NCBI GenBank assembly: GCA_965206745.1 | Contig: OZ242220.1 | Location: 384,001-448,000 of the forward strand | Source of the DNA: Nitrosopumilus sp. | GTDB taxonomy: Archaea > Thermoproteota > Nitrososphaeria > Nitrososphaerales > Nitrosopumilaceae | Direction of reading: 5' to 3' | Length of the DNA stretch: 64,000 bases | Shown: piece after piece, positions 1 through 19,323 of the stretch | Numbering within the stretch: the first letter of the stretch is position 1 | How the letters are laid out: each line of letters starts with the position of its first letter | Notes under the pieces: generated by a model | Seen by the model: the letters and a program-made list of their open reading frames with translations, nothing else | Databases searched by the model: none | Told to the model about the DNA's origin: nothing | Position numbers and translations under genes: made by a program

Positions 1-110
1 GGGGATATGAGATAGCTGTGATTTTTTGGTCTCACAAAAAACCGCGTGGCTTTTGCTTAAAAGTATGGCAATCAAGAGGTAGAATTTGTTGGTACTAAAA
101 AAAGATGGTG

Positions 111-776
111 TCAGCACGCCATGTGCTGTACTGTTTTGGCTCTCCCAGATAGCATGTTGCAGATGGCAGCCATCGCGTGCACAGACACCATGATTGCAAG
201 GATTGTGTATGCTCCCCCGAGGAGGACTGATCCGATGCCAACTATTACGCCATACGATGCGGCATAGAGAATCCATGTCTTTTTCATCCCCACCCTCTTG
301 TACATGACGGAGATTATGACGTTGCGCTCCTGCCTTGGGAATCTCCCTGACCTTACTGTACTGATCACGTCAAATGAGAGGGCAGCCACATAGAGGGGTA
401 CCATGACGTGCAGTGCAATCGCATCCTGGAGCAGCACCAGCAGCGCTGCAAGCGCAACAGATGCCACTACTACATACAGTGTCCTGTCTAAAGAGAGGAC
501 TCCCAGCCCGACTGCAACCATGATCACCCCGACTATGGGGAACCAGAATGCAAGCAGCCCTACGAATCCCTTGCCGATGAGATGGAACTGCCCGATGATC
601 TTTGTCGCATTTTTTGTAGCGTCATCGCCGGCAATATCGGCATAGTCTGTGGTGTCGTTTGCCACCATCGTTGCAAGCGTTCCACCTATCACTGCAAGGA
701 TCAATCCGACTACAAACACCAGCCCCATCGCCTTTGAGGCCTCGCCTATGTCGGCCTTGCCGAGTTTCTCTAACAT
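111..776 (-). CDS. Multi-pass membrane protein; N-terminal hydrophobic hairpin (pilin/spindle-virus capsid-like), C-terminal DUF5658-like segment
   Basis: Two long hydrophobic helices flanking a polar linker with NDT/NAT sequons; D-x-x-S-T...E-R-N motif in the C-terminal half. Confidence 0.5.
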   Translation of the reverse strand: MLEKLGKADIGEASKAMGLVFVVGLILAVIGGTLATMVANDTTDYADIAGDDATKNATKIIGQFHLIGKGFVGLLAFWFPIVGVIMVAVGLGVLSLDRTLYVVVASVALAALLVLLQDAIALHVMVPLYVAALSFDVISTVRSGRFPRQERNVIISVMYKRVGMKKTWILYAASYGVIVGIGSVLLGGAYTILAIMVSVHAMAAICNMLSGRAKTVQHMAC

Positions 777-825
777 GGCAAATCGTATAAAATTCGGATT
801 TAAGTAAAATTATCTGATACATTCT

Positions 826-1329
826 GTGTTAATAATAGATCTCGTCAATGTCGTGGCACGTGCCAGGATTGCAAGGGTGGATGTGGCAGACATATCATGC
901 AGGGTGCCGTGCAACTATGTCCCCTCCAGGTTTGCAGCACTGGTGATTCCCATCAAAAAGTCAAAGATGGTACACGTCAACTTGTATTCTTGCACCATCA
1001 CATCCACCGGTGCAAACAGTACCGATGATGCGATATCTGCAATATGGGATGCAGTAGGGATCATCGAAGAGTCCGGAGAATACCTAAAGTTTCTTAAACC
1101 TCCAAGTATTAGCAGCATCACTGCCGTGGTATATCCGACAGACGAGAAAATGATACCTATAGTACCTGCAGACGCGCAGAAGGTGCCGTTCTTCTCCTCG
1201 CATTGCAAGATAAGGGATCCCCTTAACAATGCGACCCTGATGATTGCAAAGTCAGGCAGGGTGACGATAACAGGCGCCACCTCGCTTCATGATGTGATTG
1301 CAGCAGCCAAGAGGCTTTTTGGCATTTGA
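826..1329 (+). CDS. Divergent TATA-box-binding protein (TBP) homolog
   Basis: Two TBP-like repeats: VNVVA...YVPSRFAALV...TITSTGANSTDDAISAI and ...ATLMIAKSGRVTITGATSLHDVIAAAKRL, compared with canonical ENIVA...YEPEQFPGL...LIFSSGKIVCTGAKS; 167 aa. Confidence 0.8.
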   Translation: MLIIDLVNVVARARIARVDVADISCRVPCNYVPSRFAALVIPIKKSKMVHVNLYSCTITSTGANSTDDAISAIWDAVGIIEESGEYLKFLKPPSISSITAVVYPTDEKMIPIVPADAQKVPFFSSHCKIRDPLNNATLMIAKSGRVTITGATSLHDVIAAAKRLFGI

Positions 1330-1436
1330 TGTGTCTAATTCAAAGGCATCATGCTGATGCGAGACGAGTGATTCATCAACAGTACATTACAGGTGGAACT
1401 GACGACCCTTAACCCTGTTTTTTACTGCATGGTACA

Positions 1437-1838
1437 ATGCTGCTTGCAAACGAGAGCCTCCTGATGACGGTGGCATTTGTAGGACTTGCCGGAGTAATTG
1501 TCGTAATAATTGGAGACGACTATGGGGATACCATCCAGGCAATTAACAGCATGTCGGACTCTAGAAGTGCCGGGATTGCAGAATCAGTCGGCGTGCTTGA
1601 CGTGCAGAAGGGGGGTGACATAGCATACATCATACTCTCAAACCATTCCGAGGATGCAGTAATGCTCATCGGCTTTTGGGACGAGGACGGCGATGAGCTA
1701 GTATGCAGTGATTCGGGGGGCATGTTGGATGGGCTGCAGATACCTGCAGGTGGGACTGTCACGATATCATGTGCCATCAGCGGCACACACGTCATAGTCT
1801 CGACTGCAAACTATAACCTCATCCGCATCAAAACATGA
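1437..1838 (+). CDS. Archaeal type IV pilin-like protein
   Basis: N-terminal hydrophobic helix then beta-rich domain with ILSN, IPAGGTVTI and VSTANYN patterns typical of archaeal pilins. Confidence 0.55.
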   Translation: MLLANESLLMTVAFVGLAGVIVVIIGDDYGDTIQAINSMSDSRSAGIAESVGVLDVQKGGDIAYIILSNHSEDAVMLIGFWDEDGDELVCSDSGGMLDGLQIPAGGTVTISCAISGTHVIVSTANYNLIRIKT

Positions 1839-1955
1839 ATCAACATGACTCATCCGTTCTAATTGGGATGCCGCAGTTTAGAATCTGCCTCTGGCATCAC
1901 GATTCCCTGTACCCCAGTCCCCTCCCCTTTTATTCAAAAGAACCATGTCCTGCCA

Positions 1956-2444
1956 ATGGATTCAAAACCGATTGCCATAATACTTGGCATCGTCATCACT
2001 GTAGGCGCAATGGGCGCTGCCACAGTATATGCTGGAAACATCTTTTCTGGGACCAGCACCAGCACCGACCTGATTCCAAAGACAGTCGAGATCTTTTCAA
2101 TCGACAAGGATCACCTTGAGGCAAACGTCCAGCTTACAAATCAGGGAACAGGAACGCTGCAGAACATCAGGGGACAGGTGGAGGTCAACGGGCTGACAAA
2201 CCACACGCTGACTGTCAAGACATCCAGTGTGGGGCCATACAAGACCCTCGTGCTCTCCGGACCCATAAGGGACATAGAGTCGGCAGGAGCTACGGGCAAA
2301 GGCACGCTCATTGGAACTGCCACCTCACAGGACCAGGCAAGCCAGTGGGACATGTATCCTGGCCAGAGCGTGCTGCTAAGAATCACGGCAGAGACGACAT
2401 CTGGCGACAGCATAGAGAAGCTCCATGAGATAACAGTGAGATAG
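1956..2444 (+). CDS. Archaeal type IV pilin-like protein
   Basis: MDSKPIAIILGIVITVGAMGAATVYAG resembles a pilin N-helix; LTNQGTG and PGQSVLLRITAETTSG motifs. Start reassigned to ATG 1956, with a TTTTATT box about 25 nt upstream. Confidence 0.65.
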   Translation: MDSKPIAIILGIVITVGAMGAATVYAGNIFSGTSTSTDLIPKTVEIFSIDKDHLEANVQLTNQGTGTLQNIRGQVEVNGLTNHTLTVKTSSVGPYKTLVLSGPIRDIESAGATGKGTLIGTATSQDQASQWDMYPGQSVLLRITAETTSGDSIEKLHEITVR

Positions 2445-2458
2445 GCCCGGTCTCCAAC

Positions 2459-2472
2459 CCCCATTTTTTTTT
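2459..2472 (+). terminator. Archaeal oligo-T terminator after the pilin-like gene
   Basis: T9 run about 20 nt downstream of the stop codon. Confidence 0.45.
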
Positions 2473-2518
2473 AAAATCCCTGCCAGTCTCCTTTAATGTA
2501 AAAGGGATACCGTGCTTT

Positions 2519-3139
2519 GTGACGTTTGAAAAGTATTTTGTGGCAATAAGACACGAGTCCGAACTGATGACCCCGCTTGTGGAGAGTCCGCTTATGAACT
2601 TCAGCCTCAGGGAGATTGGATACCTCGGGGTCTTTGGACTCTCGGCAGTCTTTGCAGCAATCGGCTCGATACCGTCATTTTCTACTATCTTTACGTTCCC
2701 CCTCCTTGTCCTGGCACTGTTCAGGTGGCACGGGGAGATCCCCGAGATGTACCTGTACTTTATGGCAATGCCGTTCTTTGAGCCATCAAAAAAGAAGAGA
2801 CGCAAGGCAAAGCACCCGAGGTCGGAGGTTTCAGGGTATGGGGAGAGAATGCCCATTACGGGGGAGCAGGCAGTACGTGAGAGGATACAGAAGGTAAGGT
2901 TCTCCGATGAGATGACGCCCCTTGATATGACCCTTGAGATCGGAGGATCCCACGTACATGAGACAGTATCTGTATTCATCGATGATAGAAAGATAGTCTG
3001 CGACAGCACAAACGGGGCAGGCCAGATTGTAGTCAGCGTCATGCCGCAGAGGGGGCAGAGGCGGCTATCAATCAGAGACAGAGACGGCCACATCCTAATC
3101 TCAAAGACAGTACAGTTTGAGGGGGCAGGGCGCCAGTAG
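2519..3139 (+). CDS. PrgI/VirB3-like membrane protein
   Basis: FSLREIGYL followed by two TM helices and G-x-x-P-E; overlaps the start of the VirB6-like gene. Confidence 0.55.
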   Translation: MTFEKYFVAIRHESELMTPLVESPLMNFSLREIGYLGVFGLSAVFAAIGSIPSFSTIFTFPLLVLALFRWHGEIPEMYLYFMAMPFFEPSKKKRRKAKHPRSEVSGYGERMPITGEQAVRERIQKVRFSDEMTPLDMTLEIGGSHVHETVSVFIDDRKIVCDSTNGAGQIVVSVMPQRGQRRLSIRDRDGHILISKTVQFEGAGRQ

Positions 3140-4893
3140 TGAGGGATGCGTCGCAGAACAGAGTCCTGCGGTTTCTCTTTTCATACTCGGAGGCAGATCT
3201 TGGGATATCTGCTGTGATCCTGCTTGTCACCACAATAGGGATGACGGTAGCATTTATCATATTTGCAGCAGAGCAGACCAGACTGTTACAGCTGGAGTTT
3301 ATCAACGTGGGCTTTCACAATCCAAAGTTCTTTGAGGATGTCCGCGGCATTGCCGGATTCACCGAGGGCGCACTCTCGTACTCTGAGCCGACATCAAACT
3401 ATGTCACATACGAGCTGATGCGCCAGAACATATTTCCCATCGGTGCTATCCTTGTGTTTGTATACATCCTGATAAACGCGTGGGGCGAGGCATCTGGAAT
3501 ATTCAGGGGAGGTGCGACAAGGCAGATGTTCTTCAAGTTTCTGGGGGTGATGATACTGGTGATGGTCTTTGTTCCGGCATGGGATGTGGCAGCAGTAGGG
3601 ATAGAGAAATTCTCAATATCAATGCTAAACCCGATGTACTCCCATGATGCACAAGACAACTGCGTGGAGAGGCCAGATGCCGTACTGCTGCTGGTAGCAG
3701 AGCAGAACCAGAGGATACACCAGAGACTCGACCAGTCGACACTCGGATTCAATGACTGGGATATGTGCCATCCGCAGCTGAGAATCGCATACGTATACCA
3801 AAAGGCATTCTCCGGTGCGACAAGTGAGATTGACCAGAACGTGATAGGCTTTGAGAGGATACTGTCTGACTTTGCCAATCTGGGCGAGATAATCGGTTCG
3901 ACGATATTTCTTGGCATGACCAAGACCATGCTGCTCTTCTCTGTAACCCTGATAGGACTCATAGTAATGACCATCCGCGAGCTGCTCCTTGCACTGCTCA
4001 TATCGCTGCTGCCGATGTTCATACTGCTGGCATTTGTGCCAAAGGTCGGAGGCATCTTCTCAAGGCTGCTTGAAACCATTGTTCCGCTGCTGCTGATTCC
4101 TGTAATCACTGCTGCAGTCTTTCTGACGGGGGCAGGAATCCTCCTTGACATGGAGGACGAGTTTGTCCAGGCCAGGGCAGACGGCCATGAAAGGTTCACC
4201 TTCTGGATTGCCGCAATATCGCTACTGATTCTGGCAACTGGCATCCCGCTGCTGATGGCCCCGATACTCTCCGGCATTGCAAGTCAGGCCTCCTCAATGG
4301 TGGGTACTGCAGTACTGTCGGGGATAGTGGGGGCAATGAGTGTGGTGAAAGGCGGTGCTGCAGGAACCGCAGCAGGAATCAGGGGTGTCTCTGAATCCGG
4401 ATCCGGATTTATCAGCAGGGCAGGAATGGCCGGAGTGATAGGAGGACTGGGACATGGCACTGCAATGGGCGCCTCAGCGGGTCTGATGTCCGATGTGTCA
4501 ACAGGGGTATCGCACATGGCACCGGGCACCGGTCCTGCAGGCTCTCCGTTCTCGCAGCAGGGACGTGACTTTCTAAGGTTTGCAGGTACCGGTTCTGGGG
4601 GAGGATTTGATCCGCAGGAATCTGCAAGGCTGCGCGGCAACCTGGCAGTGGCACCTGACCCCGCAAGTGTCGTGCCTGCAATCCCTCCGATAGGCCAGGG
4701 CGGCAATTATGCCAGCATGCCTATTATACCGACAAACATCGGCTCGCCGGTACAGTATGCTGACACGACACCGAGAAGCAAGAGCGGGGAGGATGCGCTG
4801 CTTGATACCAATAGTCATATCCGGCCGATATTCAGGGAGAGGCCTGACCTGACAAATGCCGGAGACAAGAAAATCCTGAAAGGGGAAAAGTGA
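3139..4893 (+). CDS. VirB6/TrbL-like conjugative transfer membrane protein
   Basis: Multi-TM core with IRELLLALLISLLPMFILLAFVP motif followed by a Gly/Ala-rich tail, the TrbL/VirB6 architecture. Confidence 0.75.
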   Translation: MRDASQNRVLRFLFSYSEADLGISAVILLVTTIGMTVAFIIFAAEQTRLLQLEFINVGFHNPKFFEDVRGIAGFTEGALSYSEPTSNYVTYELMRQNIFPIGAILVFVYILINAWGEASGIFRGGATRQMFFKFLGVMILVMVFVPAWDVAAVGIEKFSISMLNPMYSHDAQDNCVERPDAVLLLVAEQNQRIHQRLDQSTLGFNDWDMCHPQLRIAYVYQKAFSGATSEIDQNVIGFERILSDFANLGEIIGSTIFLGMTKTMLLFSVTLIGLIVMTIRELLLALLISLLPMFILLAFVPKVGGIFSRLLETIVPLLLIPVITAAVFLTGAGILLDMEDEFVQARADGHERFTFWIAAISLLILATGIPLLMAPILSGIASQASSMVGTAVLSGIVGAMSVVKGGAAGTAAGIRGVSESGSGFISRAGMAGVIGGLGHGTAMGASAGLMSDVSTGVSHMAPGTGPAGSPFSQQGRDFLRFAGTGSGGGFDPQESARLRGNLAVAPDPASVVPAIPPIGQGGNYASMPIIPTNIGSPVQYADTTPRSKSGEDALLDTNSHIRPIFRERPDLTNAGDKKILKGEK

Positions 4894-4945
4894 TGTCTTG
4901 GATATGCAACTGCATGATGTGTCTTCACATCAGACCAGATGGCAA

Positions 4946-7135
4946 TCAGAGATGTTCCTTCTTTGTGATTGCAACATCATAGCTGGCAGTCTCTGCAAAT
5001 AACAGCCTCCTGATTCGCTCATTTAGTGGCAGGGGACTACCCCAAAACGAGTCACCTTCTGTCTGCAGGACAAACTCTTTCTCAGTTGCATATCCCAACG
5101 TACCTGCGTTTGTAATGACCAGGTCCGGCTCTACTGTCTCGTATCTTAGTGTCCTGTGCGTCCTCTTTTCATCTGCCATCTCCTTTGTAATGTTCTCATC
5201 ACTGATAGTGCACAGCAGAACCCACCATCCCCTCTTCTCGTTGTATACTGCCGGATACCCGTGCCTTATCCCCACTGCATCCTCTGAAAATACCGTTGCA
5301 CGATAGCCAAACTTTAGCTCGCATTTGTCAGGACCCATCACCTCCAAGCCGGCCTCTGAGATTCTAAAGTAGGGGTTTGTCGTAAACCACATGTGTCTTG
5401 ACTGGTCATGCCATGCATCAGCATAGGTGTCCTCCTCTGGAATCCCCTTCGGCTTGATGGCCCTCTCCAGCCTCGTCTTTGTGTTCTGTGACTCCATCTC
5501 TGCATCCCTTATCTCGTCGATGGCAGTCTTTTGGGAGCCAAAGTGTTCCCGCCGAAGCTCGAGTCTGCCCTCGTCGAGGCCCTCAATGACATGCTGCACC
5601 CACCCTCTGTCCGTGTGGTCAGTCCACTGGCTTGGTGGATTTGACTTGCACCATGTGTCATAGACGCGCCTTGCCCTCAGCTTTGCCTCCTGGCGTTGCT
5701 CCCGCTCAAAGGTCTTGGCGTACATTGGTCCGCTTTGGAACTTTTCAATATCCTCATATGCCGCATCCAGGGATGCAATGGCAGCAAGTATCAGGGAATA
5801 GTCCTTCTCTGATGCGATTCTTTTGGCCTCATCTGCACCCCATGGGCAGAATATCTCATCAGTCCATGCAAAGCTAAACCCGTCTGGAAGATCATCTAGT
5901 TCCTGTACTGTTATCTTTTCATTGATCTCCTTCTTGAACTGCTGCCACTCTACGAGGGACTGGGGTCTAAATGATTCAGGGACAGAACCGTTCCTTGCAA
6001 TCTCTTGTATGGTGTCAAATATGATGTACGGGTTGCAGCCATCCCTCACCCTCTGCGAATCCTCCTCCTGTAGGTTTTCAGTTACTATCTTCATGGCCTC
6101 TGCAAGCAGAGACTGATGCTCCATATTGTACTGCTCAAACCGCCTGCCGTACCGCAGTATGTCTTCTCTTATTTTTCTGTCCCTGCGTGTCAGGTCACCT
6201 GCAACCTCAAGTGGAATTCCTGTGCAGAGGCATGCAAGTACCACCCTTGCATCGCATTCCCCTATCTCCTTGGTGGTGGGACTGCCCCACCTTCTCTTTG
6301 CAAGTATTGCCAGATAGTCGTTGATGCGCTTGAAGGTGCCGTACTTGCCTGAATAGTATTGCGCATAGATCTCCTCTGGTGTCATCGAGCCGAACTCTTC
6401 TGTGTATGTTGCAAGTGTCCGTATCTCCTTTGCGCCCCCGTCTGAGTATGCCTTTGCTATACTAGTACAGACAGACTCTGCAGGCTCTGATTTTACCCTG
6501 ATCTCGATGCCGCGGTTTCTCCTCGATGACTCGTCATACCCATCCCTCCACGTCGGCTCAAAGTAGTGGATCCTCACTGTCCTGCCCCTGGAGTCATACG
6601 AGTCCAGAATATCCAGTGGCATCTCAAGACACAGCCCCCTATCAAACGTTACAAAGTATATTCCCAAATTAGTTATCAGCATCTGGCCCTTGCCAAACCT
6701 GCACTCCCCGTCATGGCGACTCATCAGGTGCTCACCTGCATGCATTGCCAAGTATCCCTCCATGTTTGGCCTGTTCTTTGGATGGTTCTTTTGTACTGCG
6801 ACAAGCAGCAGATTGGCAAGTCTTTTTGACTCTGTCCTCCCTGCTTTCCTCCTCTGCGTCCTGTCCGGAAATGATCTCCCCAAGTCCAGCCTAAAATCCT
6901 GATGGTATCTGCCATGGTACCTCCCCTGTTCTCCCTCCTTGGATTTTGGCGCCCTCCAGAATATCCTTACCGTGTCACGGGATACTGGAAATGCGCAGCG
7001 GATCACATCGAGATTGACTGTAAACACGTTCTTTTTATCATCATCAATCACAACCAGGGAGGAATCCTTGACGTAGAGCTCCTCGTTATCCCTGAGGTGT
7101 CCGCAGTACAGGGGCTGGCTGCTTGTCAGTACCAT
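4946..7135 (-). CDS. Hypothetical protein with two N-terminal PH/GRAM-like domains
   Basis: ELYVKDSSLVVI...FTVNLDVI and GQMLITNLGIYFV...LEMPLDIL match the PH-like G-x-L-x-I-T-N-x-R-I-x-F pattern; 729 aa. Confidence 0.55.
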   Translation of the reverse strand: MVLTSSQPLYCGHLRDNEELYVKDSSLVVIDDDKKNVFTVNLDVIRCAFPVSRDTVRIFWRAPKSKEGEQGRYHGRYHQDFRLDLGRSFPDRTQRRKAGRTESKRLANLLLVAVQKNHPKNRPNMEGYLAMHAGEHLMSRHDGECRFGKGQMLITNLGIYFVTFDRGLCLEMPLDILDSYDSRGRTVRIHYFEPTWRDGYDESSRRNRGIEIRVKSEPAESVCTSIAKAYSDGGAKEIRTLATYTEEFGSMTPEEIYAQYYSGKYGTFKRINDYLAILAKRRWGSPTTKEIGECDARVVLACLCTGIPLEVAGDLTRRDRKIREDILRYGRRFEQYNMEHQSLLAEAMKIVTENLQEEDSQRVRDGCNPYIIFDTIQEIARNGSVPESFRPQSLVEWQQFKKEINEKITVQELDDLPDGFSFAWTDEIFCPWGADEAKRIASEKDYSLILAAIASLDAAYEDIEKFQSGPMYAKTFEREQRQEAKLRARRVYDTWCKSNPPSQWTDHTDRGWVQHVIEGLDEGRLELRREHFGSQKTAIDEIRDAEMESQNTKTRLERAIKPKGIPEEDTYADAWHDQSRHMWFTTNPYFRISEAGLEVMGPDKCELKFGYRATVFSEDAVGIRHGYPAVYNEKRGWWVLLCTISDENITKEMADEKRTHRTLRYETVEPDLVITNAGTLGYATEKEFVLQTEGDSFWGSPLPLNERIRRLLFAETASYDVAITKKEHL

Positions 7136-7363
7136 GATTATGGTGTGCGGTGACTATTCTTTTTAAAGAAACAATCCCGTCTGGCAGAAATCAGTCCCTC
7201 AATAATCTCACATGATACACCTTGATTCGTGTACGACATCTTTGTGTAACATGTGCCAGCACGGATAAAAAAATATGCAAGTGATCCTTTCCCTACCAAG
7301 TGATGCACATGTGGCAGTAGTTGCTAAATGAGAAAATATATTGTATATCTCTATGATCCTTTT

Positions 7364-7699
7364 ATGGTTTTGAATCTAAAGAAGACTCTATTATTTACAT
7401 TAATGCCGCTTCAGGGAATCTTGTTGATATTGATAGGAGATGGAATAGCCCGCATCAGAGTACCTGATGAGATTGATCCTGTTTTTCAAATCTGGGTTTT
7501 TTTCAACTATGTCCCCTTGCTTGTTTCACGTCTAGCGTGGGCGCCATTTATTTTACAAGAGGACTGGCGTCAGTATGCGGATCCTGTGATTCTAATGTGG
7601 ATTGTAGGATCAAACCTGTTATTCTGGCTCCCAATCACGCATGTCTTGTATAACAAATTTCTCAAACCAAAGGACGTTGGGAATCCTAAGCCTGTCTGA
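7364..7699 (+). CDS. Small membrane protein, unknown function
   Basis: Three hydrophobic segments; ATG 7364 preferred because of an AT-rich box about 25 nt upstream. Confidence 0.55.
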   Translation: MVLNLKKTLLFTLMPLQGILLILIGDGIARIRVPDEIDPVFQIWVFFNYVPLLVSRLAWAPFILQEDWRQYADPVILMWIVGSNLLFWLPITHVLYNKFLKPKDVGNPKPV

Positions 7700-7768
7700 C
7701 TGTTTGGAGTGTATAGAGATGAGCCGGGAATATCTCCTGGCAATTACTCATGGTATCTAATGATGTTT

Positions 7769-7843
7769 TGGTGGACCGGGAGGGAATCGCACCCTCGACC
7801 TCCTCGTTGCGAACGAGGGATTATGCTCCTAAACCACCGGCCC
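7769..7843 (-). tRNA. tRNA-Ala(CGC), CCA encoded, atypical T and D loops
   Basis: Acceptor GGGCCGG/CCGGTCC with G3:U70; anticodon arm CCTCG-TT-CGC-AA-CGAGG; T arm GAGGG-TGCGATT-CCCTC. Confidence 0.9.
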
Positions 7844-7918
7844 ACAGAATACCTGTTTTGGCTGTTCTTTTATTCATTTTCTCAACGCATAATAGCCTGA
7901 ATTCCATAAAACCCACAG

Positions 7919-9331
7919 ATGACATATGACACTATAATTACAGACTCGCACGTAATGCTCCCCCGGGGACTAGTTGAGAGAAACATCCTAATTGATGAGG
8001 GAAGAATAGTAGGACTCACCACTGATACGCCTGCATGTGATAACAGGATTGACGGTGCAGGCCTAGTCTCAGTTCCGGGGCCAATTGACACGCATGTCCA
8101 TTACGGCGTATACTCTCCAATCAACAAGGCTGCACAGACCGAGTCCCATGCAGCGGCAATAGGCGGAATCACAACAATGATGCGAATGCTCCGGCTAGGC
8201 GATCCGTTCTCAGACTCCCTGCAGTCCCAGCTTGACTCCTCTGCCAAAAACCACTATGTCGACTATGCAGTACATGCATCCATCTTTACACCGCAGCAGA
8301 TAGACGAGATGGACCACTGCGTTGAGAGGGGGGTCACCTCTTTTAAGATCTACATGAACCTCGGTGGTGATGTTGGACACGTCTACATGGACATGCCGCC
8401 TGACTCTACAAATTTGGTCGAGGCACAGGTCAACGTCACTGATGAGCTAGTTGAGCAGACAGTAAGGGCTGCAGCCAAGCTTGGCTGTCCAGTACTGGTC
8501 CATGCAGAAGACTATGAGTCGTGCGGCTGCGGAATAAAGACTGCAAAGGAGAAGAACCAGGACGGGCTGGCTGCATGGTCCTCTAGCCGCTCCCCCGAGT
8601 CTGAGGCCAAGTCCATCAGGACGATCTCACGGTTTGGCAGGGACCATGACTGTGTCATTTATTTTGTTCATATTGGTTCAAAGCGCGCACTGGAACAGAT
8701 TCAAGAGGAGAAGAGACTCGGAACCAAGATCTTTGTGGAGACCTGCCCCCACTATCTCACACTATCCCATGAGAGCCAGTCAGGCTACCTTGCCAAGGTC
8801 ATGCCTCCAATCAGGACTGAAGATGACAGAAGGGCAGTGTGGAGTGCCCTCTCAAACAACCAGATTGATACCATCGGCACTGATCACGTTGCAAACCGGC
8901 TGAAGCTCAAGCTGGACGGCCTCAACGTGTGGAGTGCGCTTGCGGGATTTCCTGGAATAGGTACTGCGATCCCAATCCTGCTCAATGACGGGGTCAACCA
9001 AAAGAGGATCTCACTTGAGCAGTTTGTCCAGTTTACCAGTACTAATGCGGCCCGAATATTTGGAATGCATCCTCAAAAAGGCACACTTGAGAAGGGCTCT
9101 GATGCAGACATTGTAATGCTGGATCTCAAAAAGGAAAAGACTGTAACCTCTGATCTGTTTGGAGGGTTCTCAGACTATGTCGTGTACGAGGGAAGAGAAC
9201 TGAAGGGATGGCCTGTAAAGACTATGGTCAGGGGGGAGCTTGTTGCCGAGGACTTTGAAGTCATTGGACGACTGGGCCATGGCAGGCTAGTCAAGAGGGA
9301 GCAGCCCGCTCAGAACCTGAATTTCAAATGA
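7919..9331 (+). CDS. Dihydroorotase/hydantoinase-family cyclic amidohydrolase
   Basis: DTHVH metal motif, SFKIYM carbamylated Lys, HAED, ETCPHYL, GTDH. Confidence 0.9.
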   Translation: MTYDTIITDSHVMLPRGLVERNILIDEGRIVGLTTDTPACDNRIDGAGLVSVPGPIDTHVHYGVYSPINKAAQTESHAAAIGGITTMMRMLRLGDPFSDSLQSQLDSSAKNHYVDYAVHASIFTPQQIDEMDHCVERGVTSFKIYMNLGGDVGHVYMDMPPDSTNLVEAQVNVTDELVEQTVRAAAKLGCPVLVHAEDYESCGCGIKTAKEKNQDGLAAWSSSRSPESEAKSIRTISRFGRDHDCVIYFVHIGSKRALEQIQEEKRLGTKIFVETCPHYLTLSHESQSGYLAKVMPPIRTEDDRRAVWSALSNNQIDTIGTDHVANRLKLKLDGLNVWSALAGFPGIGTAIPILLNDGVNQKRISLEQFVQFTSTNAARIFGMHPQKGTLEKGSDADIVMLDLKKEKTVTSDLFGGFSDYVVYEGRELKGWPVKTMVRGELVAEDFEVIGRLGHGRLVKREQPAQNLNFK

Positions 9332-9998
9332 TGTCAAATTTGCCGTTCTCCCTGGCCCTGTATATGACGTCTGGCCTTTTTAGGAATATTCCCGACTCTA
9401 GGACCCCTGCTGTCTGCTTTATCTTGCCAGAGAGGATTCTGGGATTTTTTATCGTCCCAAAGTCACAGTCCAAAATTATGTTGCCGTTCTCTGTAAAGAA
9501 CGGATATCCCCTATCAAGTGAGCGGATTTTGGGGCTGCCTCCCATCTGTATAATTGACCTTGTGACTGTATTTCTGGCAAGGGGATGAACCTCCACTGGC
9601 ACTGCACATGTGAAATTCTTTACAAACTTTGTCCTGTCTGCCATTACTACTATCTTCTTTGCAAGTCCAAACAGGATGTTCTCGCGCAGCAGTGCGCCTC
9701 CCCCGCCCTTGATGACGTATCCCTGCGAGTCAATCTGGTCTGCACCGTCAAAGACCACATCTATGTATTCTACCTGGTCTGCCTCGACTAGTGGGATGCC
9801 CTCCTTCTCTGCAGTCAGTTTGATTTGCAGCGATGTTGGAACCCCCCTGATATTATATCCTTTTAGCTTGACTAGTTTTGAGAGTGACTTTACAAGTGCA
9901 GTAGCTGCCCGCCCGCTGCCCAGTCCTATCGTGTGACCATCCCTTACAAGCTTTAGCGCGTCACTTGATAATGCCTTTATGGCACCATCGTAGGACAA
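9324..9998 (-). CDS. rpiA: Ribose-5-phosphate isomerase A
   Basis: IGLGSG, DGADQ, IKGGGGALLRE motifs. Confidence 0.95.
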   Translation of the reverse strand: MSYDGAIKALSSDALKLVRDGHTIGLGSGRAATALVKSLSKLVKLKGYNIRGVPTSLQIKLTAEKEGIPLVEADQVEYIDVVFDGADQIDSQGYVIKGGGGALLRENILFGLAKKIVVMADRTKFVKNFTCAVPVEVHPLARNTVTRSIIQMGGSPKIRSLDRGYPFFTENGNIILDCDFGTIKNPRILSGKIKQTAGVLESGIFLKRPDVIYRARENGKFDII

Positions 9999-10904
9999 TC
10001 ATTCCACCTCTGCTTGATCCAGTTTCTTTAGCACCTTCATGATGTTGCTCTTGATCTTGTCGAGATCATCTGCATCATCATCAAAGTGGTCATCTGGCGC
10101 ATCTGGTCCCGCCTTGGGTGGTTCGGGAAGTGCCGCGTATCGTGTAATCTTTGCATTCTCTTCTTCCAAGTCCGGCTTGGCATCCAAGCTGGCTTTCTGT
10201 TTTGGCATGACTGATTGGACTATCTCCATTTTATCATCAATCTTTGGTTTTGGCTGTGCCATCTGCTCGATGATCTGATCATTTGGTTTTGGCATCTGTC
10301 CTGCCTTGTCCTCAAACCGTGTAAATCTTGGTTTCTCTCTTGAAATATTTGTCAGGGTTGTAATCTCAAAACTCTGCCTTGGTTTGGTTGCAGGAATCTC
10401 AATTGGCTCTGGCCTCTTCCCTTTGGGTTTCTCAAAGTTAAATGACTTTGATGGTCTGCTCCTTGTCTCTTGCTTTGCCTCTGCACCCTTTGGCGCATCG
10501 ACTCTGCTTGTCATCTTTGATGACAGCTGATACAACTTGTCATCGAGCTTTGAGAGCTTTTGGTCCATCAGCGTGATCAGGCCATCCCCTACAGGACCGA
10601 GGTCCGGATGACTGCTTGCCTGTTCAAGTTTTTCCATCTTGGCAAGCACTATTCCCAGCTGGTGCTGGTACTTTAGTAATAGCTTGTCCTTTTGAATCTT
10701 GGAGAATTCAGAGTCTGTCTGGTACAGTCTTGAGATGGTCTTGGTCAGAATCTCCTTCTCAATTTTAAGCGAGCTGATCTGGCTCTTGATGTGTGAGCTG
10801 GCACCGAGACTGAGTAATTGGTTCTTGTCTCTTGGCACCCTGCGTACAGCAGCGGCTGTAGCGACACCTGCTATCGAACTAAGAATTAAGACAATTTCCT
10901 GCAT
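9999..10904 (-). CDS. Conserved thaumarchaeal hypothetical coiled-coil protein
   Basis: N-terminal anchor, coiled coil, C-terminal LKKLDQAEVE; tightly packed in the Lsm-L37e operon. Confidence 0.75.
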   Translation of the reverse strand: MQEIVLILSSIAGVATAAAVRRVPRDKNQLLSLGASSHIKSQISSLKIEKEILTKTISRLYQTDSEFSKIQKDKLLLKYQHQLGIVLAKMEKLEQASSHPDLGPVGDGLITLMDQKLSKLDDKLYQLSSKMTSRVDAPKGAEAKQETRSRPSKSFNFEKPKGKRPEPIEIPATKPRQSFEITTLTNISREKPRFTRFEDKAGQMPKPNDQIIEQMAQPKPKIDDKMEIVQSVMPKQKASLDAKPDLEEENAKITRYAALPEPPKAGPDAPDDHFDDDADDLDKIKSNIMKVLKKLDQAEVE

Positions 10905-11072
10905 CTATGTATACCATTTGATCCAAGAATACTTTCTGCGCTTGGCCTCTGGGAATCCACAACTTGCACATTGGTGATGGCGCTTGTGAAGCGAGTTCTT
11001 GCCACATCTTCTGCATCTGATGTGAACTTTCTTCTTTGTAAAACCACCCATCGAAGTTGTGCCTTTAGTCAT
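10905..11072 (-). CDS. rpl37e: 50S ribosomal protein L37e (missing from ORF track)
   Basis: Read by hand: [40 protein letters not shown]; directly downstream of Lsm. Confidence 0.95.
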
Positions 11073-11082
11073 TGCAATTCAC

Positions 11083-11322
11083 CTAACTATGTGCCGGCGG
11101 AGGGGAAATCATTACCACGTTGTCTCCTCTAACCACAATGCTTCCGAGGCTTTTAGAATCGCCTTCAGCGGGAATCTCCTCTGAAGAATCGAGTAGCAGG
11201 TTCATGTGCTGGTCAAAACCTAAAAGAGTACCTCTGATGGTCTTGCTTCCTTTGAGCTTTATCAGTACAACTTGACTGATACTCTCATCCAATACTTTTA
11301 CTGCCATATCAACGGACATCAA
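11083..11322 (-). CDS. Sm-like archaeal protein (Lsm/SmAP1)
   Basis: GFDQHMNL (Sm1) and VVRGDNV (Sm2). Confidence 0.95.
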   Translation of the reverse strand: MMSVDMAVKVLDESISQVVLIKLKGSKTIRGTLLGFDQHMNLLLDSSEEIPAEGDSKSLGSIVVRGDNVVMISPPPAHS

Positions 11323-11377
11323 TAATCACTTATTGACATGGATATCAAGGCATTATATTAAATTTCCATTGGTGAAA

Positions 11378-12094
11378 CTATGATATGTGCCCAGTAAGGC
11401 AAGTTTGACACTTTTTTCCGAGATTTTCGATGATTTCGGCTAGAATCTTCTCCCCGTCCCCCCTTGTGGCCCCTCTTGGATCCCCCCAGATCCCGTTCTT
11501 GGTAGCTTTGGGAAATGACTTGCTTGCAAGTACTCCGATCCTGTCGATCTCCTCCTTTGTCATCCCGTCTGTATCCAGACCCTTCTCTGCCAGGTCCATC
11601 CTGACATTTTCTGATATTGCCAGCATCAGTGATGTCTCTACGAATCCTGCATGATCAAACTCCCTTTCCATAAAGTGCCAGTAGGAGAGCGGAAATACCT
11701 GCAGCTTGCCAAGTTTTACATCCAGGCCCTCCACTGCCTTTAGGTTTCCATGGTGGCCGTTAATTATGAATGCCGTCCTGATGCCGTTTGCTAACAGTGA
11801 TGAGCACAAATCAGCCAGAACCGTCTGCAGGGTTGACTCTCTGAGACTCAGATTAAAAAAAGGCGCATGCTCGTGGGAGACACCATAGTTTATTGTGGGA
11901 AGCAGCAGGTATCCGAACTTTTCTGAGATCCGTCTTGCAACCTCAGTTACTATATCAGAATCAGTCGATACCGGCAGGTGCGGTCCGTGCTGTTCCATTG
12001 AGCCTACCGGTATTACTGCAACCTGGTTCCTCTTTGAGATTGCCTTCCTCAAGATGGGATCAAACTGTGTCTTGATGTCTGTCATCTGTCTCAC
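11378..12094 (-). CDS. Creatininase-family amidohydrolase
   Basis: GSMEQHGPHLP, NGHHGN, HAGFVETS. Confidence 0.9.
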   Translation of the reverse strand: MRQMTDIKTQFDPILRKAISKRNQVAVIPVGSMEQHGPHLPVSTDSDIVTEVARRISEKFGYLLLPTINYGVSHEHAPFFNLSLRESTLQTVLADLCSSLLANGIRTAFIINGHHGNLKAVEGLDVKLGKLQVFPLSYWHFMEREFDHAGFVETSLMLAISENVRMDLAEKGLDTDGMTKEEIDRIGVLASKSFPKATKNGIWGDPRGATRGDGEKILAEIIENLGKKCQTCLTGHIS

Positions 12095-12933
12095 TTTGAT
12101 TTGATGTGAACCTTTCTCCAGCGGACATCAAGCTTGTTTTCCAGATGCATCCTCATTGCCTTTAGCAGCGTGTCTGCCTCTAGCTTTTGTCCCTTGGATC
12201 TTATCTGCTCTAGCGTGTCGTTTGGATCAACCTTGAAGGAGTCTTGCAGTATGATGGGCCCTTGGTCAAGGCTCTCAGTTACATAGTGTGACGTGACGCC
12301 GACGATCTTTGTGCCCCTCTCAAAGGCTTGTGCATATGCCGAAGCTCCCGGAAATGCCGGCAGCAGCGACGGATGAATGTTGATTATCCTGTTTGGGTAT
12401 CTCCAGACAAAGTTGGGACTGAGTATTCTCATGTACCTTGCAAGTGAGATCAGATCAATTTCGTACTTTTTGCATGTCTTGATGATCTTCTCCTCTGCCT
12501 TATCCTGCGTCTTTTCATCTACTGTGACAAATGGAATCTTTGCCTTTCTTGCCAGCGGTTCCAGTGATCTCTCCGTGCCGATGATTACCGAAATTTTCCC
12601 CCTCAGTGATTTATAATCTGCCAGAATTGTCTGCAGGCAGCGCGGTTCCCTGGTTACAAAGACTGCAATGTTCTTCTGCGAGTTTGTCTCGTGGTGAGTA
12701 CTTGCATCCATTCTCTCCTTTCTGGCCAAGCCCTGGATGTCTGAATCAAACTTTTTCACATCGACTGCCTTTGAAAAAGACACCTCCAGATACATTCCAA
12801 AGAGGCCCTTGATCACGTTCTGGTTTACCTTCTCGATGTTCCCTCCCTTGGAGAATGCAAAGTTCGTAAATGCGGCCACAATTCCCTCCCTGTCCTTGCC
12901 AACTACTGTAATTCCGACGACTGTCTTTTTCAT
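12091..12933 (-). CDS. purU: Formyltetrahydrofolate deformylase
   Basis: ACT domain plus LARYMRIL and INIHPSLLPAFPG; true start MKKTVVG at 12933. Confidence 0.9.
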   Translation of the reverse strand: MKKTVVGITVVGKDREGIVAAFTNFAFSKGGNIEKVNQNVIKGLFGMYLEVSFSKAVDVKKFDSDIQGLARKERMDASTHHETNSQKNIAVFVTREPRCLQTILADYKSLRGKISVIIGTERSLEPLARKAKIPFVTVDEKTQDKAEEKIIKTCKKYEIDLISLARYMRILSPNFVWRYPNRIINIHPSLLPAFPGASAYAQAFERGTKIVGVTSHYVTESLDQGPIILQDSFKVDPNDTLEQIRSKGQKLEADTLLKAMRMHLENKLDVRWRKVHIKSK

Positions 12934-12984
12934 GACTTGTTTGCTAAAGTTTTTCTCATTATTAATCATTGACGGAAACCAGAA

Positions 12985-13072
12985 TGGTGCGGGAGGTGGG
13001 ATTTGAACCCACGAAATCCTGAGATATAGGGTCCTAAGCCCTACGCCTTTGACCAGGCTGGGCGACTCCCGC
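12985..13072 (-). tRNA. tRNA-Leu(TAG), CCA encoded
   Basis: GCGGGAG acceptor, TAGGG-CT-TAG-GA-CCCTA anticodon arm, long variable arm, TTCAAAT T-loop. Confidence 0.95.
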
Positions 13073-13214
13073 AATGAGGATGCCATTGAACACAAAGTTA
13101 ACTGTTTTGAGGGATATGCTCAAACTCAGAGTTTGTGGGCTGGCTTGGAATGAAAATATGTCCAATGTCCCCTCCAAAGTAATTAAATACCAATTTCAGT
13201 ACAAGTGTAACATC

Positions 13215-13307
13215 ATGAACAAAGAGGAGAAAGAGACGCTCAGAAGATCAGTGGAGGCTAGTATAAAGCAGAACAAGCTGGTTTATCAGATGCTTCATGA
13301 CCTCTAA
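13215..13307 (+). CDS. Putative 30-aa antitoxin for the downstream Doc/Fic toxin
   Basis: MNKEEKETLRRSVEASIKQNKLVYQMLHDL; AATTAAATA box about 26 nt upstream; overlaps the toxin start. Confidence 0.55.
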   Translation: MNKEEKETLRRSVEASIKQNKLVYQMLHDL

Positions 13308-13881
13308 AAATCTAGCCTCTGAGGAGATCATCTTTATTCACGAGATAATCGAGGAGACATTCAATCTGCCTAGGGGACACATCAAAGTTGGAGACTTGGA
13401 GACACTAATTGTAAAAAGTCAGGGAATTCCATTCTCTGGGAAGAGTTTTGATTTGTTTAGACAAGCAGCAATTCTTTTTGAAGGAATTATCCGGTTGCAT
13501 CTTTTTACGGATGGTAACAAAAGAACGGCATTGGAAACTGCAAGACAGTTTTTGAACCGAAACGATCACGTTCTTGTTGTCCCGTTAAGCGGTACTACTT
13601 TCATATATGAAATTGCCAGAGACAAGACTCTGGACACAGACAAAGTGGTATCTGAAATTTCTGGCTGGATAGAAGCACATTCCCCAAAAGCAAATCAACG
13701 GTACAGGATTTTGGGTTTGCAGTTGTTGTACATGTGGTTACCTGTCAACCTGATAAATTTTTTCTCAAAAATCAAATTAAATGGACTGAGCCGAATGATC
13801 TTATACAGATATCTGAAGAACAGGGATCCAAAAGTGACAGAATTTATGTTCTCAATTTATGAAAAACAGCTTGGCCTCTGA
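13297..13881 (+). CDS. Doc/Fic-family toxin
   Basis: HLFTDGNKRTA is a Doc-type HxFxDGNKR motif. Confidence 0.85.
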   Translation: MTSKNLASEEIIFIHEIIEETFNLPRGHIKVGDLETLIVKSQGIPFSGKSFDLFRQAAILFEGIIRLHLFTDGNKRTALETARQFLNRNDHVLVVPLSGTTFIYEIARDKTLDTDKVVSEISGWIEAHSPKANQRYRILGLQLLYMWLPVNLINFFSKIKLNGLSRMILYRYLKNRDPKVTEFMFSIYEKQLGL

Positions 13882-15647: not shown

Positions 15648-15709
15648 CACTTTTAATACCAAACTCATCGATGGATAGAATGGAGAATGAACCCCTAGGG
15701 TGACGAAGT

Positions 15710-16305: not shown

Positions 16306-16315
16306 GTGTTAGGAT

Positions 16316-16516: not shown

Positions 16517-16518
16517 AA

Positions 16519-16920: not shown

Positions 16921-16926
16921 TCCGGT

Positions 16927-19100: not shown

Positions 19101-19131
19101 TGCGTATCTGAATTCTGCTCTACTAAAAAAT

Positions 19132-19278: not shown

Positions 19279-19323
19279 TACTTGGTTATCTGGGGGCATT
19301 GTGATTAAAACTTAGCTTTTAAC

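What the first reader, a model, noticed from the sequence alone, without database searches (positions are those of the whole stretch)
826..1329. Element-borne, highly divergent TBP lacking two DNA-kinking phenylalanines
Seen: both TBP repeats are recognisable, but the LIFxSG motif reads NLYSC in repeat 1 and MIAKSG in repeat 2. The second NxV motif reads SIT and the second stirrup region is degenerate. Known: TBP bends TATA DNA using two Phe pairs and recruits TFB through a stirrup. Inference: either an alternative TBP for element promoters (boxes upstream of neighbours read CTTAACC at ~1408, CTTTTATT at ~1927, CTTTAAT at ~2491), or a decoy/repurposed TBP fold that modulates host transcription.
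Basis: partly seen in the sequence, partly recalled or inferred. Interest (0 to 1): 0.8.

Follow-up and report, generated by a model that had tools for sequence, protein, structure and literature searches.

The report
Divergent TBP tied to archaeal DNA-transfer genes
This gene encodes a real but strongly altered TATA-binding protein that belongs to a small, separate branch of the family found almost only next to conjugation-type DNA-transfer genes in Nitrosopumilus genomes, which suggests that these mobile modules carry their own version of a basic transcription factor.

Summary
Window 826-1329 (+) encodes a 167-aa two-repeat TBP: PF00352 47.2 bits against a cut-off of 22.9, AlphaFold pLDDT 96, TM 0.83 to solved TBPs. 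Two of the four DNA-kinking Phe positions are changed (L53, A141), the second Asn/Val reads S97/T99, and the second stirrup is degenerate.

It lies in a 19.4-kb GC-rich island ending at a tRNA-Ala. Two relatives lack the island. Its neighbours are VirB4-like and VirB6-like genes.

With a sister group it forms a separate TBP clade (96% SH-aLRT). All 17 aligned members match PF00352. The four closest sister-group pairs give dN/dS 0.13-0.31.

Of 401 Nitrosopumilaceae genomes, 12 carry the clade. All 12 are among the 13 that carry one VirB4 clade, and in 11 the two genes lie 0.8-16 kb apart. The gene usually sits in a tight operon: pilin-like, membrane protein, TBP, pilin-like.

Module promoters use the host's TTTAA[AT] core. 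I found no evidence for a new TATA specificity.

Function is inferred, most likely transcriptional control of the transfer module. An architectural role in DNA transfer is the main rival. New variant of a known kind.

The parts
826..1329 (+). Divergent TBP gene (167 aa, GTG start). It belongs to the transfer-module TBP clade, group G1.
   Evidence: PF00352 47.2 bits. AlphaFold pLDDT 96.2, pTM 0.87. Foldseek TM 0.83 to TBPs. Clade support in the tree.
777..825 (.). A 49-bp divergent promoter region. One A/T box at 798-804 (ATTTAAG) lies 27 nt from both start codons, 776 on the minus strand and 826 on the plus strand.
   Evidence: Sequence. Box positions.
111..776 (-). Polytopic membrane protein (221 aa). 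It is a homologue of the ~130-aa 'fam1' gene that directly precedes the TBP gene in the sister elements.
   Evidence: BLASTP family clustering and gene maps. Hydropathy and alignment. No Pfam family.
1..35 (-). 5' end of the VirB4-like ATPase gene (602 aa, C1:382227-384035). Most of the gene lies upstream of the window.
   Evidence: Pfam TraG P-loop 42.8 bits, AAA_10 30.9, DUF87 25.4. 27-30% identity over the full length to the VirB4 genes of the sister elements.
1437..1838 (+). Small protein (133 aa) with an N-terminal hydrophobic segment; pilin-like by appearance only.
   Evidence: Translation. 50% identical homologue in the syntenic island of G299. No Pfam family.
1956..2444 (+). Small protein with an N-terminal hydrophobic segment. 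It is listed as an ORF from TTG 1863, but ATG 1956 with a box at -28 is the likelier start.
   Evidence: Weak CARDB match, 17.5 bits, below the cut-off.
2519..3139 (+). 206-aa protein of unknown family. A TTTAAT box begins 27 nt before its start.
3139..4893 (+). VirB6/TrbL-like integral membrane protein (584 aa).
   Evidence: PF04610 20.0 bits, E 6.5e-4, below the cut-off of 25.9. Homologues in L032 and L034. 79% identical in G299.
4946..7135 (-). 729-aa protein of unknown family ('fam7') that travels with the module.
   Evidence: No Pfam family. Homologues in L032, L034 and G299.
7328..7699 (+). 123-aa ORF, the last ORF of the island. Its status as a gene is not tested.
7769..7843 (-). tRNA-Ala(CGC). 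Its 3' end marks the right border of the island.
   Evidence: ARAGORN. Homology to relatives G183 and G195 resumes at window 7771.

Best explanation
The gene encodes a genuine but highly derived TATA-binding protein of a separate clade. That clade is a standing component of one lineage of VirB4/VirB6 (usually also VirD4) DNA-transfer modules carried by integrated elements of Nitrosopumilus.

The window's copy sits in a reduced 19.4-kb island with no VirD4, integrase or TFB gene found. It is transcribed divergently from the membrane-protein gene that precedes it in the other elements, and the two share a single A/T box.

Proposed mechanism (inferred, not shown): the protein keeps the saddle and part of the minor-groove contact set (N8, V10, F36, T59/T61, F123, T147/T149, basic pI). 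It therefore still sits on the TTTAA[AT] boxes of the module's promoters and controls transcription of the transfer genes.

The canonical C-terminal stirrup that recruits TFB is degenerate, and two kinking Phe are lost. So the protein either works with a non-canonical partner or surface (an element TFB where one exists), or it occupies the boxes without recruiting TFB and acts as an in-operon autorepressor.

Shown: family membership by sequence and fold, the separate clade, the genomic linkage, and purifying selection in the sister group. Inferred: DNA binding, its targets, and the sign of regulation.
For: Sequence and fold:
- PF00352 at 47.2 bits against a cut-off of 22.9.
- 35 of the 39 listed PDB sequence hits are TBPs.
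- Model pLDDT 96.2.
- 44 Foldseek hits are TBP chains at E<=1e-7, with TM about 0.8.

Separate clade:
- G1 (8 rows) and G2 (12 rows) are each supported at 99%, and together at 96% SH-aLRT, apart from 48 other TBPs that include the 5 host ones.
- 17 of 17 members match PF00352.

Linkage:
- Full-length matches of at least 116 bits occur in 12 of 401 sampled family genomes. Canonical TBPs reach at most 87 bits, and only over the first repeat.
- The related VirB4 clade (at least 807 bits) occurs in 13 of the same 401, including all 12. In 11 of the 12 the two genes lie on one contig 0.8-15.9 kb apart.
- The order fam4(VirB2-like)-fam1-TBP-fam3, with overlapping stops and starts, is seen in L028, L031, L033, L034, L039, L040 and L043.

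Selection: dN/dS is 0.13-0.31 in the four closest G2 pairs.

Charge: pI is 7.7-10.2 across the clade, similar to the host TBPs at 9.3-10.0.

Promoters: the host TATA core and the module boxes coincide in sequence and position. The flank is module-specific, with C at -1 in 7 of 9 module boxes against 21 of 102 host boxes.

Precedent:
- All thaumarchaeal ICEs analysed by Krupovic et al. encode TFIIB homologues (PMC6563490, passages).
- Sulfolobus TFB3 co-regulates the Ced, Ups and HerA operons (PMC9905601, passage).
- A divergent TFB lies 16 kb upstream of the TBP gene in one sister element.
Against: - The C-terminal stirrup lacks the acidic YEPE motif, and helix 1' is nearly gone. Canonical TFB recruitment is therefore doubtful.
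- Two of the four kinking Phe are lost in this copy (L53, A141), and the second Asn is Ser.
- The gene sits inside a tightly packed operon of membrane and pilin-like genes, which is more typical of a machine part than of an initiation factor.
- No TFB gene lies in the window's island.
- Of the five long sister loci whose genomes were searched for TFIIB, only one has a TFB within 20 kb.
- A syntenic island in G299 keeps VirB4, fam1, VirB6 and fam7, and keeps the fam1 box, but has no TBP gene and no remnant of one. The gene is therefore not required for the module to persist.
- The module boxes have the host core, so the host TBPs could serve them.
- I obtained no expression data.
Confidence: 0.5

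Rival explanations
1. The protein is an architectural or DNA-handling part of the transfer machinery. The TBP saddle would be re-used to bend or mark DNA (an origin-of-transfer or substrate DNA) for the VirD4/VirB4 apparatus, as IHF and relaxosome accessory proteins do in bacterial conjugation. It would not act in transcription.
For: The gene is internal to a translationally coupled operon of apparatus genes: VirB2-like pilin, 4-TM protein, TBP, pilin-like protein. In most elements it lies one to two genes after VirD4. It co-occurs strictly with one VirB4 clade. The TFB-binding stirrup is degenerate. The passages I read from the archaeal Ced/Ted paper propose NurA-HerA instead of a dedicated relaxosome (PMC9905601). 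TBP-fold domains do serve DNA processing in Rep_trans initiators (PMC13107129, passages).
Against: The window's island and the G299 island have no VirD4, yet the window keeps the gene. G299 lost the gene while keeping the apparatus genes. I know of no precedent for a true TBP homologue in DNA transfer. No transfer origin is known for these elements.
Confidence: 0.25
2. The protein is a decoy that titrates host TFB or other TBP partners and so modulates host transcription.
For: The TBP fold is kept while DNA-kinking residues are partly lost. The gene is element-borne.
Against: The surface a decoy would need, the C-terminal stirrup, is the least conserved part. The DNA-facing residues N8, F36 and F123 are the invariant or nearly invariant ones. 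The tight linkage to one module argues for a module-directed role.
Confidence: 0.08
3. This copy is a decaying remnant with no present function, a leftover in a degraded island.
For: The island lacks an integrase, VirD4 and att repeats. A syntenic island has lost the gene. This copy alone has N97S.
Against: The frame is intact. A 99%-identical protein occurs on three long contigs, and 55-58% identical homologues keep the same motifs. The model is very confident. The box lies at the right distance from the start. Contigs of a second study that are 95-99% alike hold parts of the island.
Confidence: 0.05
4. The protein is a Rep_trans/MOBT-like nicking enzyme (relaxase) built on the TBP-like fold.
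For: Rep_trans initiators share the fold and occur on conjugative elements of bacteria (PMC13107129, passages). The gene lies in a conjugation module.
Against: No PF02486 match at E<=10. All significant fold hits are TBPs. The only invariant Tyr (Y31) is the stirrup Tyr shared with ordinary TBPs, and no invariant acidic residues exist. At 167 aa the protein is only the double repeat.
Confidence: 0.02

Closest known systems
Archaeal TATA-binding protein (PF00352), including the multiple TBP paralogues of ammonia-oxidising archaea
   Same: Two tandem repeats and the saddle fold. The first-repeat Asn/Val, both stirrup Phe and the S5 Thr residues are kept, and the pI is basic. AOA genomes are reported to hold 2-5 TBP and 4-11 TFB copies (PMC7554672, passage). 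This genome has five others.
   Different: About 20 aa shorter, and 19-27% identical to ordinary TBPs. It scores far below every NCBIfam TBP cut-off. Two S4 Phe are lost, the second stirrup and helix 1' are degenerate, and it forms a separate clade linked to a transfer module rather than to housekeeping loci.
TFIIB/TFB homologues carried by thaumarchaeal integrative-conjugative elements (Krupovic et al. 2019)
   Same: A paralogue of a general transcription factor carried by the same kind of element, next to VirB4, VirD4 and VirB6 genes.
   Different: That paper reports TFB usually coupled to ParB. 'TBP' and 'TATA' do not occur in its main text, and its supplementary annotation could not be read. 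Here the factor is a TBP inside the pilus and membrane gene operon.
Sulfolobus TFB3, activator of the Ced DNA-import and Ups pilus operons
   Same: A truncated or derived general-factor paralogue dedicated to a VirB4-type DNA-exchange system (PMC9905601, passage; PMC6101591, listing and start of abstract only).
   Different: TFB3 is a host-encoded TFB fragment. It is not a TBP and is not encoded inside the system.
Eukaryotic TBP-related factors (TRF2/TLF) that lack the kinking Phe (recalled, not from a call)
   Same: A TBP paralogue with the fold kept but intercalating Phe replaced, used for a dedicated gene set.
   Different: A different domain of life with an independent origin. TRF2 keeps its TFIIA and TFIIB surfaces, whereas here the TFB stirrup is the degenerate part.
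Ced/Ted DNA-import systems and archaeal conjugative plasmids (Beltran et al. 2023)
   Same: The surrounding module: a VirB4-like ATPase, a VirB6-like membrane protein and small pilin-like proteins. The window's island, like Ced, has no VirD4.
   Different: No TBP is mentioned in that paper's main text. Homology of the island proteins to Ced/Ted proteins was not tested here.

Membership tests
TBP (Pfam PF00352) | Two tandem TBP repeats recognised by the family model above its gathering score | tested here: met
   47.2 bits against a cut-off of 22.9, with two stretches. 17 of 17 clade members match. The second repeat alone scores 21.2 bits, below the cut-off.
TBP (Pfam PF00352) | Saddle fold: two alpha/beta repeats forming a ten-strand sheet with four helices on top | tested here: met
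   pLDDT 96.2, pTM 0.87. The strand and helix order is as in TBP, except that helix 1' is reduced to residues 107-109. TM 0.83 to solved TBPs.
TBP (Pfam PF00352) | Four DNA-kinking Phe, two per repeat (role recalled from the TBP-DNA structures) | tested here: not met
   F36 and F123 are kept. The S4 positions are L53 (Y54 follows it) and A141. In the sister group the S4 positions are Y or F: 9 of 9 in repeat 1 and 8 of 9 in repeat 2.
TBP (Pfam PF00352) | An Asn and a Val on strand S1 of each repeat facing the minor groove (role recalled) | tested here: inconclusive
   In repeat 1, N8 and V10 are kept, and N8 is invariant in 17 of 17. Repeat 2 reads S97/T99 in this copy. The Asn is kept in 7 of 8 G1 members but not in G2.
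TBP (Pfam PF00352) | C-terminal stirrup with an acidic YEPE-type motif that contacts TFB (role recalled) | tested here: not met
   AQKVPFFS replaces YEPEQFPG, and the region is about 7 residues shorter.
TBP (Pfam PF00352) | Binds TATA DNA and nucleates a TFB-RNAP complex | not testable with these tools
   This needs EMSA or footprinting and in vitro transcription.
NCBIfam archaeal TBP equivalogs (PRK00394 set) | Score above the curated cut-off | tested here: not met
   The best of 10 models scores 41.8 bits against a cut-off of 278.
Thaumarchaeal integrative-conjugative element (Krupovic et al. 2019) | [quoted passage not shown] | tested here: not met
   The island has a VirB4-like gene but no homologue of the sister elements' VirD4 (fam5). 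The sister elements have both.
Thaumarchaeal integrative-conjugative element (Krupovic et al. 2019) | An integrase and att repeats at a tRNA gene | tested here: not met
   The island ends at the 3' end of tRNA-Ala. No repeat of at least 14 nt of the tRNA region exists elsewhere in the island. No integrase domain was found in the ORFs scanned. The small ORFs were not all scanned.
Thaumarchaeal integrative-conjugative element (Krupovic et al. 2019) | An element-encoded TFIIB homologue | tested here: not met
   The six TFB genes of the genome all lie outside C1:372,400-391,770.
Rep_trans / MOBT nicking enzymes (TBP-like fold) | A PF02486 match with a catalytic Tyr and acidic metal ligands on the sheet | tested here: not met
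   No PF02486 match at E<=10. The invariant residues are N8, Y31, P33, A38, S60 and F123 only. Fold hits are TBPs.

The most novel reading that the evidence does not exclude
The transfer-module TBP is not a transcription factor. It is a working part of archaeal conjugative DNA transfer: a saddle protein that bends or marks the DNA to be transferred for the VirD4/VirB4 machine. That would make it the first DNA-processing accessory factor recognised for archaeal conjugation, and the first case of a true TBP recruited to a job outside transcription.
Probability: 0.25. Interest if true: 0.85.

Novelty: new variant of a known kind. Interest (0 to 1): 0.6.

Why it matters
General transcription factor paralogues are the archaeal counterpart of alternative sigma factors. 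TFB homologues on thaumarchaeal conjugative elements are in print (PMC6563490).

I found no report of a TBP lineage tied to such modules. My literature searches returned none, and neither 'TBP' nor 'TATA' occurs in the main text of the two most relevant papers. Their supplementary tables could not be read and may list the gene.

If the protein regulates the module, mobile elements of abundant marine nitrifiers carry their own copy of the promoter-recognition step. It would also be a natural experiment in how far a TBP can lose kinking Phe and the TFB stirrup and still work.

If instead it handles DNA for transfer, it would fill a gap in archaeal conjugation, for which no relaxosome is known.

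Either way the clade is a compact marker gene for one lineage of Nitrosopumilus transfer modules: 12 of the 13 genomes with that VirB4 clade carry it, and none of the other 388 sampled does.

Tried and rejected
- **Related-locus scans that found nothing.** Profiles of the closest homologues found nothing in genome contigs (A1), viral contigs (A2) or metagenome contigs (A3).
- **G1-only profile searches.** These matched only the window's genome: the next best hit in 200 family genomes scored 55.9 bits, and 1 of 401 class genomes matched at E<=1e-18.
- **att repeat search.** No repeat of at least 14 nt of the tRNA region lies inside the island. The only two hits are elsewhere in the genome.
- **Expression.** No RNA holder is listed. 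The runs laid were contigs only, and they say nothing about transcription. Some are only guessed to be RNA.
- **Complex prediction.** The window's protein was tried with the core domain of one host TFB. The tool gave no answer: score 0.00 against a mark of 0.32. This is neither for nor against binding.
- **De novo promoter matrix.** A position-weight matrix for host promoters did not separate promoter windows from control windows, so I dropped it in favour of exact-core counts.
- **TFB near the sister TBP genes.** tblastn with the six host TFBs found none within +-10 kb. A Pfam search of five of those genomes found one divergent TFB 16 kb away (G482), and others only 60-110 kb away or not at all. 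A general TBP-TFB pairing on the elements is therefore not shown.
- **Tyr54 as the Phe equivalent.** I first read Tyr54 as a conservative replacement of the repeat-1 Phe, following the alignment with the sister group. The ungapped register places L53 there, so I withdrew that reading.
- **dN/dS for G1.** This could not be computed because no DNA of the other G1 members was available.
Full report
**The gene and the observation**

Window 826-1329 (+) is an open frame of 167 codons starting with GTG. Homologues begin at the same place.

- Pfam finds one family at E<=10: TBP, PF00352, 47.2 bits against a gathering score of 22.9, with two matched stretches.
- All ten NCBIfam TBP models match weakly, 19-42 bits against cut-offs of 181-347.
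- 35 of the 39 listed PDB sequence hits are TBPs, the best at E 1.7e-6.
- An AlphaFold2 model built on an 83-row alignment has pLDDT 96.2 and pTM 0.87. It shows the TBP order of strands and helices, except that helix 1' shrinks to residues 107-109.
- Foldseek against the PDB returns 44 TBP chains at E<=1e-7, with TM about 0.8. The next hit is at 7e-4 with TM 0.29.
- The ESM Atlas look-up also lands on TBP clusters, score 0.95.

So both repeats and the fold are real.

**The altered motifs**

Three results agree on an ungapped register: HMMER against P. woesei TBP, MAFFT with the five host TBPs, and the near-invariant Gly at position 56 in the 83-row alignment.

- Canonical LIFxSG of repeat 1 reads VNLYSC. 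The Phe position is L53, and Y54 is the residue after it.
- Repeat 2 reads LMIAKSG, so the Phe position is A141.
- The two stirrup Phe, F36 and F123, are kept.
- N8/V10 of repeat 1 are kept. Repeat 2 reads S97/T99.
- The second stirrup reads AQKVPFFS where the host has YEPEQFPG, and the preceding helix region is about 7 residues shorter.

The roles of these residues (kinking Phe, groove-facing Asn/Val, TFB-binding stirrup) are recalled from the published TBP-DNA-TFB structures. They do not come from a call.

**The island**

The window is G000:C1:384001-448000 of a 1.86-Mb genome with 41% G+C.

- tblastx and blastn against two relatives of the same genus (G183, G195) lose homology right after argH, near C1:372,395. 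Homology resumes at C1:391,771, the 3' end of tRNA-Ala(CGC).
- In those relatives the two flanks lie 53 and 82 kb apart.
- The 19.4 kb between the flanks has 44-53% G+C. In order, it holds:
  - a 2,972-aa Ig-domain protein
  - a VirB4-like ATPase
  - a 221-aa membrane protein
  - the TBP gene
  - three small proteins
  - a weak VirB6/TrbL match of 20 bits
  - a 729-aa protein of no family
- I found no integrase and no VirD4. I found no repeat of the tRNA region in the island, and none of the genome's six TFB genes lies there.

It is therefore a horizontally acquired island with a reduced transfer-type module, not a complete ICE.

**Relatives of the protein**

- The word-based search found only the protein's own cluster and two proteins of 56-58% identity.
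- The exhaustive profile search of 1.84 billion representatives found 256 proteins at E<=1e-3, but only 8 at E<=1e-10. After six short proteins of 161-174 aa (308.9 down to 80.4 bits) the scores drop to 70.9 bits and below, mostly ordinary TBPs.
- All of these are single-member clusters, some on contigs of 77 kb to 2.3 Mb.
- Among the weaker hits was a second set of short TBPs. A scan with them returned seven loci in records titled Nitrosopumilus sp. MAGs.
- In a quick IQ-TREE of 68 rows, the window's group (G1, 8 rows) and this second group (G2, 12 rows) are each supported at 99%. Together they split from the 48 other TBPs, the five host copies included, at 96% SH-aLRT. Long branches are a caveat.
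- All 17 aligned members match PF00352.
- Across the 17, the invariant residues are N8, Y31, P33, A38, S60 and F123.
- G2 has Tyr or Phe at the S4 positions, 9 of 9 in repeat 1 and 8 of 9 in repeat 2. The loss of these aromatics is therefore specific to G1: repeat 1 is L, V or I in 8 of 8, and repeat 2 is Ala or Ser in 6 of 8.
- The pI is 7.7-10.2 throughout the clade.
- For the four closest G2 pairs dN/dS is 0.13-0.31, at dS 1.1-2.2, which is close to saturation.
- No G1 DNA other than the window's was available.

**Linkage to the transfer module**

- Five of the seven G2 loci have, within 10 kb, a VirB4 homologue about 30% identical over its full length to the island's. Of the other two, L033 is a 2.8-kb contig and L030 has none.
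- Family clustering shows a recurring order: fam8, fam3, VirB4, a VirD4/TraG-like protein (Pfam T4SS-DNA_transf 21.8 bits and TraG-D_C 24.3 bits, both just over their cut-offs), fam4 (weak TrbC/VirB2 match, 18 bits, below cut-off), fam1 (about 130 aa, four hydrophobic segments), then the TBP. Stops and starts overlap.
- The island's 221-aa membrane protein is a fam1 homologue. Its VirB6-like and 729-aa proteins also recur in these loci.
- In a sample of 401 Nitrosopumilaceae genomes, the G1+G2 profile gives full-length matches of 116-208 bits in 12. Everything else reaches at most 87 bits, and only over the first repeat.
- The VirB4 profile gives at least 807 bits in 13 genomes: those 12 plus G299. 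In 11 of the 12 the two genes lie on one contig 0.8-15.9 kb apart. In G281 they lie on different contigs of a 100-contig assembly.
- Ninety further genomes have more distant VirB4 genes (at most 618 bits) and no such TBP.
- These counts include four genomes flagged unpublished, all as negatives. Related genomes are not independent, so I give no P value.
- Five more loci were fetched. Three repeat the order fam4-fam1-TBP-fam3 in full (L039, L040, L043). L042 shows the same order but fam1 was not called there. In L041 the TBP frame was found only by hmmsearch and no neighbour was assigned to a family.

**A syntenic island without the gene**

G299 carries an island like the window's. Amino-acid identities are VirB4 83%, fam1 67%, VirB6 79% and the 729-aa protein 59%. 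It has no TBP gene.

The window's segment C1:384,777-385,405 is replaced there by 278 unrelated bases, with no tblastn remnant (best E 1.2). The fam1 box is kept. The gene can therefore be lost without loss of the module.

**Promoters**

- In 937 host upstream regions the core TTTAA[AT] peaks sharply 26-30 nt before start codons: 80 occurrences in that 5-nt bin against about 6-25 in the others. It is present in 183 of 937 regions at -45..-16, against 61 of 937 in a control window. That is the host TATA box, and it implies mostly leaderless messages.
- Boxes at -23 to -32 are found upstream of 16 of the 27 module and island gene starts examined.
- A single box at window 798-804 lies 27 nt from both divergent start codons, 776 and 826.
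- The core is therefore the host's own.
- The flank differs. C stands at -1 in 7 of 9 strict module boxes against 21 of 102 host boxes (Fisher p 8.5e-4, inflated because several promoters are orthologous). The flank just upstream of the box is where TFB reads the BRE (recalled), not where TBP binds.

**Reading**

Shown:
- a true TBP by sequence and fold
- a separate clade under purifying selection, at least in G2
- tight, specific linkage to one lineage of VirB4-type transfer modules
- an island acquired horizontally

Inferred: what the protein does.

I favour control of the module's transcription at its TTTAA[AT] boxes (confidence 0.5). The reasons are homology, the retained groove-facing residues, and the precedent of general-factor paralogues tied to such systems. 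TFB homologues occur on all thaumarchaeal ICEs analysed (PMC6563490, passages). TFB3 co-regulates the Ced, Ups and HerA operons (PMC9905601, passage). A divergent TFB (PF00382, 30.1 bits) lies 16 kb upstream of the TBP gene in one sister element.

Four observations fit a box-occupying autorepressor at least as well as an activator: the degenerate TFB stirrup, the lost Phe, the position inside a structural operon, and the dispensability seen in G299.

The main rival (0.25) is a non-transcriptional, architectural role in DNA transfer. The remaining rivals are less likely:
- a decoy for host TFB (0.08)
- a decaying remnant (0.05)
- a Rep_trans-like nickase (0.02), given no PF02486 match, no catalytic set of residues, and fold hits that are all TBPs

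**Novelty**

Six literature searches returned no report of a TBP lineage on thaumarchaeal or other archaeal conjugative modules. 'TBP' and 'TATA' are absent from the main texts of PMC6563490 and PMC9905601.

Supplementary annotation tables were closed and may list the gene. Subscription-only papers were not searched.

I rate it a new variant of a known kind, interest 0.6.

Noticed in passing
G000:C1:372633-381551 (just upstream of the window; L009:6633-15551): A 2,972-aa protein with six He_PIG and four Big_9 Ig-type domain matches fills the left half of the island. It is probably a giant surface adhesin travelling with the transfer module.
   Followed up: partly
L038 (G299:C1:1667501-1687500), 9452-19964: A syntenic island (VirB4 83%, fam1 67%, VirB6 79% and the 729-aa protein 59% identical) lacks the TBP gene. 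There, 278 unrelated bases replace the 629 bases that hold it in the window's genome.
   Followed up: yes
G000:C1:522329-522931 (+) and 526348-527046 (-): Two further host TBP paralogues lie 3.4 kb apart. Their first repeat is degenerate (41.6-47.6 bits against 67.6-76.6 for the second), and they cluster together in the tree apart from the three canonical host TBPs.
   Followed up: partly
window 34001-38000, 42001-46000; also C1:448001-456000: Stretches of very low G+C (25-33% against a genome mean of 41%) suggest further foreign islands in and just beyond the window.
   Followed up: no
L035:12996-13862 (G482:C1:546996-547862): A divergent 289-aa TFB (PF00382 30.1 bits, weak Zn ribbon) lies 16 kb upstream of the module-type TBP gene of one sister element. 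Between the two lie an ATP-grasp-like gene, a helicase and a restriction-modification methylase.
   Followed up: partly
window 111-776 (-) and fam1 genes of L028-L034: The membrane protein that accompanies the TBP gene has about four hydrophobic segments and conserved D-x-x-S-T and E-x-N motifs. It has no Pfam family, and in most elements its stop overlaps the TBP start.
   Followed up: partly
Upstream regions of module genes in L028, L029, L031, L032 and the window's island: Module promoters share an extended pattern around the host TATA core, roughly (G/C)C-TTTAA[AT]-N(1-3)-CAAA. C stands at -1 in 7 of 9 module boxes against 21 of 102 host boxes, and CAAA lies just downstream in 3 of 9 against 7 of 102.
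   Followed up: partly
window 1-12000, run X1: Contigs of a run from a different study than the best holders cover parts of the island at 95-99% identity. A somewhat diverged strain therefore also carries the island.
   Followed up: no
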